Shown: one piece after another, positions 18,001 through 21,000 of the stretch
How positions within the stretch are numbered: position 1 is the stretch's first letter
How the letters are laid out: each line of letters starts with the position of its first letter
Source: Mustelus asterias
Taxonomy: Eukaryota
NCBI RefSeq assembly: GCF_964213995.1
Contig: NW_027590192.1
Location: 682,001-746,000, forward strand
Reading direction: 5' to 3'
Length of the DNA stretch: 64,000 nt
Program-made: the position numbers

Positions 18001-21000
18001 AGCGGAGGGAGGTTTGTTGTGTCGGTGAATGAAGCAGAAAAGACATTTTCGCTGGAAATTCGGGATATGAGAATTGAAGACACTGCCACCTATTATTGTA
18101 AAGCTCAGCACTGGTACTACACACATGGGACACCACAGTGGAAAAGAGGAGAACAAATACTTAAGTATTTCTGAACAAGCGAAGCAATAATTTCCAGGAC
18201 ACGGACCACAGCTTGTCGGGTTGTTGTTATTATCGTTGCAACATGGTTTAATTTCGTTGTAATTTCCTCCTTTCAGTTATCTTTCTTTAACTTTTTTATT
18301 CCATTTCTACGAAGCGTCCATCTCCGCTCCGTTCCTGGGCCGTTTTGCCAAGAGTTCAGAGTGTCCCAAGGAACAGTTTGTTCCAATGGGAATTATAAAA
18401 CTATCATACTTCATTATTGACCTATAACCCCTGAATAATTGATAAACGCTGACTATTCGGTAATTTTTTCCCCATCAGTTTGAGGTGTCTGTCATTCTTG
18501 TACTGGGCTGACTGAGAGCGCTGACACCGTGGGGAGAATGGAGATTTACAGATGGGTCTGGGACGGTGGTGACTGTCTCAGCTGGTAAGCGACTCCAAAT
18601 CCCCCGTATTGCAGAATGTCCTGGTTCGTTTTCGCCGTCAGTTCATTCTTGTAGTGTGTCTCACTTCAATCCTCTGTGACTACAATAGCAGCGTGGGGGA
18701 AGGGGGTTTCTGTGGAAGATTTTCAATTGCAGTTTTAGATTTGGGAGCAGAATAGGAAACTGGAGTCGGGTCCACATTTTGAAGCTATGACTTCTGTCCT
18801 AGTGTCAACTTTGCTTCTCTCTGTGGCTCTTACGAAGGGTCATCCAGACTGGAAAGGTTGACTCTATTCTGTCTCCACAGATGCTGTCAGACCTGTTGAG
18901 CTTTCCCAACATTTTTCAGGTTTTGGTGTTGATATAAATCTTTAGCATTAATTTATAGGTTCATTAATGTACGAGTGGAGAAAATGATTCAGATTAAAGA
19001 AACATTTAATATGATGCCAGTGAGATAAAAGAAAAGGAAATTAGGAGGAATGTGGAGCGCGCTGCCACATGGAGTGGTTGCAGTAAATGGCGTAAGGAAT
19101 TTTTCTGACGGCGTGAAAAATCGAGGAGGGAGAAGGACACAGTGCTCAGTGTACAAAGGTTTCGTTAGGGATCGAGTATGAGAGGGGAGTAGGTACGTGT
19201 GCAGTGCAAGGACAAGCGTACTGTGAGCCGACTGGCCTACTTCTGTTCTGTGGAATCTATATCATATAAAATACAGAGAGGATTCTGCCCAGAAAGCATG
19301 GGGAACAATCAACCAATGGATGGAAGGAATTGAAAATCTCAGGCGCCTCGAAAAGGCAATTTTCACAGGAAGTAACAGTGAGCAAGTCGATCGGGGAAAC
19401 TGAGCATGCTGATCTCAACTGACATTGGAGAGTGTCTGGGACCGGTTCTCATGGTGGCAAGAAATCGCAAGCAGTACAAAGAGAACAACTCAGATTTATA
19501 AATCCACTGGTATTAACTGTAAATCATTCTAATATATAATATAAATTGTAGAATTGATGGACGAAACTGTGCAAAGAGTTGGACTGTAGTCAAAGGTTGA
19601 TCTTTGACACAGATATGCAATGTCAGTTTCGCTTAATCAGTTTCGCTGGGCGAGTATGACCGTCTTTGCCTGAATCTTGATGCGACCCAGCATATAAAAC
19701 GGCAGTGTTACTCTCAGTCAATCAACTCTGGACAGCAATTGTTATAGTGAGAAGAGTGAACTTTCATATAATTTCCTCAGGTTTGTAAATCGCCAATATA
19801 CACAGAAGCAGACACTAAATATAAAATCAGAAACCAGAGAAGGACATCACTCTGACAAAGTGGCCATTCTTTGCAGGTGCTACTGAACGTTTCCTATTTT
19901 ACCTTCCTGCTCTTCAAACCCCCGGAATTCTAATCTGATTCTGTATATTTCTTCCATTTACCGTTCGAAAATGAGTGTTGAATTTGTTTCCAACACACAT
20001 CTCCAAATAATCCAGATGAGCAAAATTCGCTGTGTACAAAAAAAATCATCTAAGTATCTGCCCCTCGGCTCTTTCGCCATTTTTTTTCAATTCATCCTCT
20101 GGATGTGGGTGTCCCTAATTGCCTTTGAACAGGATGGCTTGCGAAGCCCATTTTAGAGGGCATTTAAGAGTCAACCGCATTTTTGTGTATCAGGAGCCAC
20201 ATGTAGGCCAGACCAGATAAGGATGGCAGATTTCCTTCCCTCAAGAACATTCGTCAAACACATGTGGTTTTAACGGCAATCGACAATGTTTTCATAGTCA
20301 TCTTTGAATTAACATGCTTGTTTTATTGAAATCAATTCAATATTGAATTGAAATTCAAATTTCACCATCTTCCGTGGCACCATTCGTACCCGTGTCCCCA
20401 GCGTATTACTTGGATTACTAAATCTCTGGATTAAGCAATCCAGTCATAATACCACTTTGCCACCGTCTCCCTAATTAATTATAGTGAATAAATGTCGCAC
20501 ACCCTTTAATGAAACAATTACGGGAAAATGGCGAGCTATTGACGCGATTATATTTCCCTGGGCAAACTAACATGCAACGCAAGTAATGGAATCATAGAAA
20601 TGCATTATTTTATAGGTTCTGCAGAATCCAGTTCATCTGTGTCACAGAATCCGTCTCTCCAAACCTGTGCTGCTGACGACACCATTACTTTAAACTGTGA
20701 ATATCCAGGATTTTGTCAACACACACTCTACTGGTACCGTCACTCTCCAGGAGAGACCCCAAAATACTTGCTTAAGAGACACACATCAGGCGAGGCGATC
20801 AAAGAAAACGCTGCCGGGCAGAGAATTTCTGCTTCTGTCGACCCTGTCGAAAAAATCAGCTGGTTAAAGATCTCCAAGCTGCGATTGAGCGACTCCGCTG
20901 TGTATTACTGTGCACTGAGTGGGCGCACAGCACAGTGATGCAGAACAGGGAGAGAGCCGTACAGAAACTTGAACATGGTGAGGATTACAGACAAAGTGAT

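What the first reader, a model, noticed from the sequence alone, without database searches (positions are those of the whole stretch)
18098..18584. NAR-TCR V with a pre-built CDR3 and a 12-RSS: probable germline-joined V-D needing only one V-to-J step
Seen: both copies continue 10 codons past YYCK (AQHWYYTHGT and VQHWYYSHRT) and then carry a 12-spacer RSS, whereas the intact conventional V segments here carry 23-spacer RSSs. The J has a 23-RSS, and I find no RSS-flanked D in the ~330-bp V-J interval of either copy. Established: NAR-TCR is described as V-D-J, and germline-joined segments are known in shark Ig clusters. Inference: an ancestral germline RAG event fused V to D, giving a semi-invariant aromatic-rich CDR3.
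Basis: partly seen in the sequence, partly recalled or inferred. Interest (0 to 1): 0.75.

Follow-up and report, generated by a model that had tools for sequence, protein, structure and literature searches.

The report
D-less NAR-TCR cluster, one-step V-J
A shark-type T-cell receptor gene cluster has no separate D piece: its antibody-like V segment has an unusually long tail and the signal that lets it join its J segment directly, though how this arose and whether the gene still works are open.

Summary
The sequence features are largely real. At 17843-18133 (+) lies an IgNAR-like V exon with NAR-TCR hallmarks. It runs 11 codons past the second Cys (KAQHWYYTHGT) and abuts CACAGTG-12 bp-ACAAATACT. 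A J segment with a 23-bp-spacer signal lies 331 bp downstream. J splices in frame to a leaderless supporting delta V. No D with paired signals lies between V and J in either copy. The four other V segments with usable signals carry 23-bp spacers and tails of 3-6 codons.

The second copy lies inverted at about 27.5-26.8 kb. It keeps the tail, the 12-bp spacing and a perfect nonamer. Its heptamer is ruined (TGCACTG), and it has a frameshift and other defects. Copy 1 has TTG where copy 2 has the leader ATG.

One-step V-to-J joining under the 12/23 rule is well supported. Origin by a germline V-D coding joint is the most economical reading but is not shown. Copy 2's 12-bp spacer closely matches the nonamer-proximal half of the neighbouring delta-V 23-bp spacers. 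That keeps a rival open: remodelling of a V-type signal plus loss of D.

No other cartilaginous-fish sequence could be searched, and the founding NAR-TCR paper was not held. I rate it a new variant of a known kind, of moderate interest.

The parts
17653..17699 (+). Candidate leader exon of NAR-TCR V copy 1. It is hydrophobic (GILLVFTVCAYLPH...) and begins with TTG where copy 2 has ATG. GT follows at 17700.
   Evidence: The alignment of the two copies shows 44 of 48 columns identical here, against 81-83% in the flanks. There is no in-frame ATG upstream before a stop (read). The leader scan found no conserved alternative.
17843..18133 (+). NAR-TCR V exon, copy 1, with an open frame. It has a Cys in the a-b loop (KEC) and FFRQ in place of the canonical Trp motif, and ends ...YYCKAQHWYYTHGT plus 1 base.
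   Evidence: The best solved-structure matches are shark VNAR domains (E 3.1e-18 to about 1e-12). Pfam V-set E 1.3e-07. The hallmarks are as described for NAR-TcRV in PMC1845163 (passages).
18100..18133 (+). Tail beyond Cys-Lys (AQHWYYTHGT plus 1 base). This is the supposed D-derived part.
   Evidence: 11 codons follow Cys, against 3-4 in three conventional V segments and 6 in the supporting delta V. 31 of 34 bases are shared with copy 2, and all 3 differences change the residue. There is no other match in the window.
18122..18128 (+). Heptamer-like CACATGG inside the tail, 24 bp from the same nonamer. It could be a remnant of an older V-type signal, or chance.
   Evidence: Copy 2 has CACATAG at the same place.
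18134..18161 (+). 12-bp-spacer recombination signal of V copy 1: CACAGTG, GAAAAGAGGAGA, ACAAATACT.
   Evidence: (top score in the region, 99.99th percentile of the window).
18162..18492 (+). V-J interval of 331 bp with no D segment. It contains a better-conserved block at 18212-18270 with a nonamer-like GGTTGTTGT.
   Evidence: The interval is 67% identical between the copies, against 81% for the 18212-18270 block.
18493..18531 (-). 23-bp-spacer recombination signal of J copy 1, read on the minus strand: CACGGTG, 23 bp, ACAAGAATG.
   Evidence: 37 of 39 columns are identical between the copies.
18532..18584 (+). J segment copy 1 ((G)EWRFTDGSGTVVTVSA), ending one base into a codon. GT donor at 18585.
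   Evidence: TVVTV is the J-type ending seen in solved VNAR chains (second alignment of 8ft9). Only two copies exist in the window.
20616..20930 (+). Leaderless supporting delta V exon, copy 1. The acceptor AG lies at 20614-20615, in frame with the J donor. There is an extra Cys in CDR1 (EYPGFCQHT). The exon ends CALSGRT plus 1 base.
   Evidence: Pfam V-set E 3.2e-13. The features are as described for NAR-TcRV-associated delta V in PMC1845163.
20931..20969 (+). 23-bp-spacer signal of the supporting delta V, copy 1.
27238..27529 (-). NAR-TCR V exon, copy 2, defective. It has one extra T in a T-run that shifts the frame. The AG that would serve copy 1's in-frame splice reads AA. The tail is VQHWYYSHRT.
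27210..27237 (-). Degenerate signal of V copy 2: TGCACTG, GGAGAGAGTTCG, ACAAAAACC.
   Evidence: The spacer and nonamer match the supporting delta-V signals at 19 of 21 positions.
26784..26874 (-). J copy 2 (coding 26835-26784, one base shorter than copy 1) with its 23-bp-spacer signal (26836-26874 in plus-strand coordinates).
21354..21662 (-). Supporting delta V, copy 2. It is a pseudogene with an in-frame stop and has lost the first Cys and the Trp context.

Best explanation
This is a NAR-TCR minicluster inside a TCR alpha/delta V region. Its parts, in order, are: an IgNAR-like V, its own J, and a leaderless supporting delta V to which J is spliced.

Unlike the V-D-J arrangement reported for NAR-TCR, the cluster has no D. 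The V ends in a 12-bp-spacer signal and the J begins with a 23-bp-spacer signal. RAG can therefore join V to J in one step. Most of a long CDR3 would then be germline-encoded: about 11 codons from V and about 6-7 from J, with one junction for trimming and additions.

The most economical origin is a germline V-D coding joint. That would remove the V's own 23-bp-spacer signal and the D's 5' signal. It would leave the D's coding bases as the V tail and the D's 3' 12-bp-spacer signal in place.

Shown: the anatomy, the signal types, the absence of D, and that the arrangement predates the duplication.

Inferred: the one-step joining, the V-D origin, and any present-day function.
For: Identity as NAR-TCR:
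- The best matches to solved structures are shark VNAR domains (E 3.1e-18), and Pfam gives V-set.
- The V has the a-b loop Cys and lacks the canonical Trp. The supporting delta V has no leader and has a CDR1 Cys. All are as described for NAR-TCR in PMC1845163 (passages).
- The J donor and the delta V acceptor are in frame.

Signals:
- V has a perfect heptamer, a 12-bp spacer and a 7/9 nonamer. J has a 23-bp spacer.
- The J signal is 37 of 39 identical between the copies, while the neighbouring interval is 67% identical.
- 12 pairs with 23 by the general rule (PMC2193153, passages).

No D: (1 weak pair and 0 pairs found, about 5.7 expected per interval).

Tail: 11 codons, against 3-6 in the four other V segments with usable signals.

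In IgH-type loci V has a 23-bp spacer, D has 12 on both sides and J has 23 (PMC2435157, figure legend passage). A V fused to D would therefore inherit a 12-bp spacer opposite a 23-spacer J, as seen here.

Partly joined VD-J clusters made by germline RAG activity are established in cartilaginous-fish Ig genes (PMC4279169; PMC2193153).

The V-J distance of 331 bp equals one inter-segment spacing of a shark cluster ('about 400 bp apart', PMC2435157), not two.

Both copies share the tail and the layout. The V exon shows pN/pS 0.39 between the copies. The D-less state is therefore older than the duplication and was under selection for part of that time.
Against: No unjoined relative, free D or transcript was available, so the D origin of the tail is an inference. 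The tail has no second match in the window apart from copy 2.

Copy 2's 12-bp spacer plus nonamer match the nonamer-proximal half of the supporting delta-V 23-bp-spacer signals. The best match is 10 of 12 plus 9 of 9, and the background fraction reaching 10 of 12 is 2.4e-05. The 23-base register gives 14-16 of 23. Copy 1 shows the same only weakly (6-7 of 12; 11 of 23, background about 0.02). A D-derived signal has no reason to resemble a V-type signal.

Both copies carry a CAC-type heptamer-like word 24 bp from the nonamer. The last four tail codons could therefore be a former heptamer plus spacer.

Function is doubtful:
- Copy 2 has a frameshift, a ruined heptamer, a stop in its leader frame and a dead supporting V.
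- Copy 1 has TTG where copy 2 has the leader ATG, and no upstream in-frame ATG.
- Copy 1's only in-frame splice uses an unusual phase. I worked this out by reading the sequences.

The V nonamer (7/9) and the J nonamer (6/9) are imperfect.
Confidence: 0.5

Rival explanations
1. Signal remodelling plus loss of D. The V once had an ordinary V-type 23-bp-spacer signal. It became a 12-bp-spacer signal either by an 11-bp deletion next to the heptamer, or by a new heptamer arising 12 bp from the nonamer inside the old spacer. The latter would turn the old heptamer and 5 spacer bases into the last four tail codons. The D, now by-passed, was lost separately.
For: - Copy 2's spacer plus nonamer match the nonamer-proximal half of the delta-V signals at 19 of 21. 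The 23-base register gives 14-16 of 23, with a background of 1.6e-05 to 4.0e-04.
- Both copies have CACATGG or CACATAG 24 bp from the nonamer.
- Germline exchange of 12- and 23-bp-spacer signals has a documented precedent in sharks (PMC2193153, passages).
Against: - It needs two or more events where the V-D joint needs one.
- It does not explain the first 7 codons of the tail. V segments that join a D here and in solved VNARs stop 2-4 codons after Cys.
- Copy 2 resembles the delta-V signal (19 of 21) more than it resembles copy 1 (13 of 21). Simple descent does not predict this. A later local exchange in the decaying copy 2 does, and copy 2 sits beside a tandem array of those very signals.
- Copy 1's resemblance is weak (background about 0.02).
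Confidence: 0.2
2. Ordinary state. In this lineage, or generally, NAR-TCR V genes have a long tail and a 12-bp-spacer signal, and join J directly as kappa-type light chains do. On this reading nothing special happened at this locus, and 'VDJ' in the literature reflects the nurse shark only or loose usage.
For: - Both copies share the layout, so it is not a one-off.
- IgNAR V is said to be structurally nearer to light-chain and TCR V than to VH (PMC4279169, passage).
- That V-12/J-23 is the kappa-type layout, and that light-chain V genes have long tails, is recalled and comes from no call.
- None of the 25 library papers that mention NAR-TCR turned up a description of its germline signals. I read passages of 13 of them.
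Against: Papers that cite the original work describe two separate VDJ rearrangements (PMC1845163; PMC5931798). [quoted passage not shown]
Confidence: 0.2
3. Dead relic. This cuts across the origin question. Neither copy rearranges or is expressed today, and the window shows a decaying inverted duplicate pair of NAR-TCR clusters.
For: - Copy 2 has an extra T that shifts the frame, the heptamer TGCACTG, a stop in the leader frame and a supporting V with a stop.
- Copy 1 has TTG at the leader start and no upstream in-frame ATG.
- Other V pseudogenes lie nearby, at 16188-16483 and in a relic at about 14717.
Against: - In copy 1 the V exon, both signals, J, the splice sites and the supporting V are all intact.
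- pN/pS is 0.39, and the J signal is 37 of 39 conserved.
- The single TTG could be a polymorphism or a base-call error. The extra T in copy 2 lies in a homopolymer, where assemblies err.
Confidence: 0.3

Closest known systems
NAR-TCR of the nurse shark and elephant shark (doubly rearranging TCR delta chain; Criscitiello et al. 2006, not held here; described in PMC1845163, PMC5931798 and PMC12227049)
   Same: - An IgNAR-like N-terminal V with the a-b loop Cys and without the canonical Trp.
- Its own J.
- A leaderless supporting delta V with a CDR1 Cys and its own 23-bp-spacer signal.
- A location among TCR alpha/delta V segments.
   Different: The literature describes a VDJ rearrangement for the NAR V domain. 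Here there is no D, the V has a 12-bp-spacer signal, and the tail is 11 codons.
Partly germline-joined (VD-J) Ig clusters of cartilaginous fish
   Same: The V is continuous with extra CDR3 coding. The remaining signal pair allows one last join to J. The state is attributed to RAG activity in germ cells (PMC4279169; PMC2193153).
   Different: Those are IgH or IgL clusters. This one sits in a TCR locus and feeds a TCR delta chain. No unjoined counterpart is at hand to prove the joint.
IgNAR clusters with fewer D segments (type III)
   Same: A NAR-type V with reduced recombinational steps. Type III is said to be 'clustered with 2-D segments', against 3 in types I and II (PMC3149040, passage).
   Different: IgNAR clusters keep free D segments and Ig constant exons. 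Here there is no free D at all. That type III arose by germline D-D joining, and that it is expressed in the newborn, is recalled and was not seen in a call.
TCR mu of marsupials and monotremes
   Same: A three-domain TCR chain with two V domains. One of them is pre-joined in the germline (marsupials) or made without D segments (platypus) (PMC3457774, passages).
   Different: It arose independently. In TCR mu the membrane-proximal supporting V is the one with reduced diversity. Here it would be the outer, presumed antigen-binding V.
Germline swap of 12- and 23-bp-spacer signals by hybrid joint in sharks
   Same: A V-type segment ends up with the other spacer class through germline RAG activity (PMC2193153, passages).
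   Different: A hybrid joint would leave a D with a 23-bp-spacer signal downstream. None is present.

Membership tests
NAR-TCR cluster | N-terminal V related to IgNAR V | tested here: met
   The best PDB sequence matches are shark VNAR domains, E 3.1e-18. Pfam V-set.
NAR-TCR cluster | Cys in the a-b loop and no canonical Trp of the WYRK motif (as stated in PMC1845163) | tested here: met
   The translation reads ...TRKECQSLTITC... and ...GHFFRQ....
NAR-TCR cluster | Typical leader peptide on the NAR V | tested here: inconclusive
   A conserved hydrophobic leader-like exon exists. It starts with TTG in copy 1, and copy 2's frame runs into a stop. No conserved alternative was found.
NAR-TCR cluster | Supporting delta V without a leader, with a splice acceptor and a CDR1 Cys | tested here: met
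   The acceptor AG lies at 20614-20615, in frame with the J donor. CDR1 reads EYPGFCQHT. The exon is V-set.
NAR-TCR cluster | NAR V domain assembled from V, D and J | tested here: not met
   No D lies between V and J in either copy. The signals are 12 on V and 23 on J.
NAR-TCR cluster | Use of the TCR delta constant region | not testable with these tools
   No constant exon was looked for or seen in the window, and no transcripts are available.
Germline-joined VD-J cluster | V coding continuous with D coding, with no signal between them | tested here: inconclusive
   The 11-codon tail is continuous with V. Its D origin cannot be shown without an unjoined relative, and there is no D-like copy in the window.
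Germline-joined VD-J cluster | Retains the D's 3' 12-bp-spacer signal opposite a 23-bp-spacer J signal | tested here: met
   The caveat is that copy 2's spacer resembles a V-type signal.
Germline-joined VD-J cluster | Unjoined paralogues or orthologues exist, and the junction shows trimming or additions relative to them | not testable with these tools
Light-chain-type VJ arrangement (V 12, J 23) | V with a 12-bp-spacer signal and a long CDR3-encoding tail, J with a 23-bp-spacer signal, and no D | tested here: met
   This is a likeness in layout only. The V is NAR-type by sequence, and that this is the kappa layout is recalled.

The most novel reading that the evidence does not exclude
A germline RAG-made V-D coding joint inside a TCR locus. 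On this reading the outer, antigen-binding V of a NAR-TCR has been partly pre-assembled. One V-J join would then yield a long, aromatic, largely germline-encoded CDR3. This would be an innate-like gamma/delta receptor with a single-domain binding site. It would parallel the pre-joined Ig clusters used early in shark life, and would be the mirror image of marsupial TCR mu, where the inner V is the pre-joined one.
Probability: 0.3. Interest if true: 0.6.

Novelty: new variant of a known kind. Interest (0 to 1): 0.42.

Why it matters
NAR-TCR is the textbook example of a receptor chain built by two separate V(D)J assemblies. Its V is thought to be the source of the shark single-domain antibody V. 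A cluster that has lost its D and needs only one join would show that germline remodelling also acts on TCR-embedded clusters, not only on Ig clusters. That remodelling could be a RAG-made joint or a change of spacer class. Such a cluster would also predict a subset of gamma/delta T cells with a nearly fixed single-domain binding loop. The prediction can be tested directly with thymus transcripts. If the cluster is only a decaying duplicate, it remains a useful record of how recombination signals and segments are reshuffled in a slowly evolving genome.

Tried and rejected
**Literature**
- Five of the seven searches were aimed at NAR-TCR or its V domains. The other two were. Only 25 library papers mention NAR-TCR.
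- I read passages of 13 of those 25, and of three more papers on shark Ig genes, their signals and germline joining.
- In those passages I saw no description of germline NAR-TCR signals or of a joined NAR-TCR V. The remaining 12 papers were seen as search listings only.
- Criscitiello 2006, Ott 2021 and Criscitiello 2010 are not held.
- Supplements are closed. Table S1 of PMC12227049 lists NARTCR V coordinates in several genomes and might bear on the claim.

**Tail against solved structures.** A PDB search with the last 31 residues of V was meant to show whether the tail resembles D-encoded VNAR loops. It aligned only framework 3. One VNAR (8ft9) has WYY after its Cys, which is a lead and nothing more.

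**Free D elsewhere.** The top paired-signal candidate outside known V ends (14692-14726) turned out to be the relic signal of a V pseudogene.

**Relic D in the interval.** A nonamer-like GGTTGTTGT with CAACATG 11 bp away lies at about 18219-18245. It scores at the 99.6th percentile. That is about what chance gives in 662 positions. Rejected as evidence.

**Alternative leader.** An ATG-led hydrophobic frame at 16956 lies outside the duplicated block and has the wrong phase for the usual acceptor. Not adopted.

A first pN/pS run used the wrong frame (last lines) and was redone. Three of the five tblastn queries were also cut in the wrong frame. Only the hits of the correctly framed queries were used.

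**Collections.** No protein or contig collection holding vertebrate sequence was open, and the one open contig collection holds bacteria and archaea only. Comparison with other sharks, rays and chimaeras therefore stayed undone.

**Left out.** Exons were searched one at a time.
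Full report
**What is there**

The window is a TCR alpha/delta-type V region of a cartilaginous fish. It is not human-like. It has one N run at 35849-35986, which I left alone.

A six-frame search for V-type ends found four hits. Two are NAR-like V exons and two are delta-type V exons. A tblastn with the window's own V segments found further V segments or fragments:
- 4280-4577 (+)
- 16199-16483 (+)
- 36404-36700 (-)
- 39350-39469 (+, fragment)
- 40796-41091 (-)

The finding concerns the V exon at 17843-18133 (+) and the J at 18532-18584 (+).

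**Identity**

The V exon's best matches among solved structures are shark VNAR domains (E 3.1e-18 down the list). Pfam calls it V-set.

It has a Cys in the a-b loop (KEC) and FFRQ where V domains have the canonical Trp. These are the two features PMC1845163 gives for NAR-TcRV (passages).

J ends TVVTVSA, like the TVVTV of VNAR chains, one base into a codon before a GT donor. About 2 kb downstream an AG acceptor at 20614-20615 opens a delta V exon with no leader. That exon is in frame with the J donor and has an extra Cys in CDR1. The same paper describes this for the NAR-associated delta V.

So this is a NAR-TCR cluster. I did not build or search the joined V-J or J-delta V product. Exons were searched one by one.

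**The observation**

Copy 1 reads ...YYC KAQHWYYTHGT plus one base, followed by CACAGTG, 12 bp and ACAAATACT.

J is preceded by a signal with a 23-bp spacer. Read on the minus strand it is CACGGTG, 23 bp, ACAAGAATG.

The four other V segments with usable signals all have 23-bp spacers and tails of 3, 3, 4 and 6 codons.

Heptamer + 23 + ACAAA gives 13 hits against 0.54 expected. Heptamer + 12 + ACAAA gives one exact hit, the one at 18134.

Between V and J (331 bp) a relaxed scan finds nothing beyond the two known signals. A paired-signal scan finds 1 weak pair in copy 1 and none in copy 2, where window density would give about 5.7 each.

**The two copies**

The cluster is duplicated in inverted orientation, about 17504-21043 against 27844-21241. 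The alignment of the V-J parts has 88% mean column identity.

Identity by block:

| Block | Identical columns |
|---|---|
| V exon up to Cys-Lys | 229 of 257 |
| Tail | 31 of 34 |
| V signal | 17 of 28 |
| V-J interval | 226 of 338 |
| J signal | 37 of 39 |
| J coding | 47 of 53 |

With the extra base removed, the V exons give pN/pS 0.39. All three differences in the tail change the residue.

The D-less layout is therefore older than the duplication, and the V was under constraint for part of the time since.

Copy 2 is defective:
- An extra T in a T-run shifts the frame.
- The heptamer reads TGCACTG.
- The leader frame runs into a stop.
- Its supporting delta V has a stop and has lost core residues.

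Copy 1 is intact from the V exon through the supporting delta V. Its conserved leader-like exon, however, begins TTG where copy 2 has ATG, and there is no upstream in-frame ATG. The only in-frame splice I could find for it uses the second AG (17851-17852) and an unusual phase. This comes from my reading. Whether copy 1 is expressed is therefore open.

**How it would work**

Under the 12/23 rule (PMC2193153) this V can join this J directly. Nothing else in the interval could take part.

Untrimmed, V supplies 11 codons after Cys and J about 6-7 before its Gly-x-Gly. That would give a loop of roughly 18 residues with a single junction. This is inference.

**Where it came from**

In IgH-type loci V carries a 23-bp spacer, D carries 12 on both sides and J carries 23 (PMC2435157). 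I recall, but did not see in a call, that shark IgH and IgNAR clusters follow the same logic.

A germline V-D coding joint would therefore produce exactly what is seen:
- a longer V;
- the D's 3' 12-bp-spacer signal;
- no free D;
- one inter-segment distance instead of two (segments lie 'about 400 bp apart' in nurse shark clusters).

Partly joined VD-J clusters are established for cartilaginous-fish Ig genes.

**A new observation that cuts the other way**

Copy 2's 12-bp spacer and nonamer match the nonamer-proximal half of the supporting delta-V signals at 8-10 of 12 plus 9 of 9. The background fraction of window positions reaching 10 of 12 is 2.4e-05, and 36 comparisons were made. In the 23-base register the match is 14-16 of 23, with a background of 1.6e-05 to 4.0e-04.

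Copy 1 shows only 6-7 of 12 and 11 of 23 (background about 0.02).

Both copies also have a CAC-type heptamer-like word 24 bp from the nonamer.

This would fit descent of the 12-bp-spacer signal from a V-type 23-bp-spacer signal, either by an 11-bp deletion or by a new inner heptamer. It is not clean evidence, for these reasons:
- Copy 2 is closer to the delta-V signal (19 of 21) than to copy 1 (13 of 21). That suggests a later local exchange in the decaying copy.
- Copy 2 lies beside a tandem array of those very signals.
- Remodelling would not explain the first seven tail codons.
- Remodelling needs a separate loss of D.

I keep it as the main rival.

**What is known**

Passages in two papers describe NAR-TCR as made by two separate VDJ rearrangements. 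The founding paper and two later papers from the same groups are not held.

Among the 25 library papers that mention NAR-TCR I read passages of 13. I saw no description of its germline signals or of a joined form. Supplements were closed.

I therefore cannot say that a D-less NAR-TCR is unreported. I can only say that my searches did not find one.

**Verdict**

- The anatomy is real and the one-step V-J logic is sound.
- The V-D origin is plausible (about 0.5) but unproven.
- Present-day function is uncertain.
- It is a variant of known kinds of germline remodelling, placed in a TCR locus and affecting the outer V of a two-V chain.
- Interest is moderate.

Noticed in passing
window 20931-21367: The centre of the inverted duplication is a tandem array of 61-bp units, each holding a delta-V-type 23-bp-spacer signal. 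Two units lie on the plus strand: the working signal of supporting delta V copy 1, and a degenerate copy at 20992. Five lie on the minus strand. Four of those have a perfect heptamer and a perfect nonamer but no coding segment attached (heptamers at 21109, 21170, 21231, 21292). Orphan consensus signals in a V region could be RAG targets.
   Followed up: partly
window 27210-27230 compared with 21132-21152 and 21254-21274: The 12-bp spacer and nonamer of NAR V copy 2 are 19 of 21 identical to the nonamer-proximal part of the orphan delta-V signals. That is closer than copy 2 is to copy 1 (13 of 21). It suggests short-tract exchange between signals, or a shared origin.
   Followed up: partly
window 16041-16522: A TCR-type V gene with an intact leader (ATG at 16041, donor at 16090), an open V exon (16188-16483) and a defective signal. 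The heptamer position reads TAGAGAG, and an inner CACAGAG lies only 15 bp from the nonamer ACAAAACCT. It sits 1.4 kb upstream of NAR V copy 1.
   Followed up: partly
window 14690-14755: A relic V end (...DSALCFCGLS-like frame) with heptamer CATGATG, a 23-bp spacer and a perfect nonamer. It first looked like a free D with two signals.
   Followed up: partly
window 18212-18270 and 27099-27157: A 59-bp block inside the V-J interval is better kept between the copies (81%) than the rest of the interval (67%). It is T-rich with nonamer-like words. Its role is unknown: it could be a regulatory element or an old signal remnant.
   Followed up: no
window 21923-22310 and 25997-26506: Two close inverted repeats (192-nt arms 4 nt apart; 170-nt arms 170 nt apart) lie in the roughly 3 kb of extra DNA that copy 2 has between J and its supporting delta V. 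They look like small foldback insertions.
   Followed up: no
window 56636-57850 (-) and 47815-48107: An open frame of 404 residues made of about 14 tandem C2H2 zinc fingers (84-bp repeat, 12.6 copies; Pfam zf-C2H2 E 3.1e-92). A shorter zinc-finger-like 84-bp repeat lies at 47.8 kb.
   Followed up: partly
window 44770-45923: A tandem repeat of an 18-bp unit, 63 copies, 96% matches.
   Followed up: no
window 53390-56311 and 60000-64000: Open frames that look like reverse-transcriptase fragments lie at 53390-53995 (-) and 55697-56311 (-); these were not tested. A very GC-rich stretch (61-68% GC) holds a 438-residue open frame with a weak CCHC zinc-knuckle match (E 0.0032, below Pfam's cut-off). 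These are probably retroelement remains.
   Followed up: no
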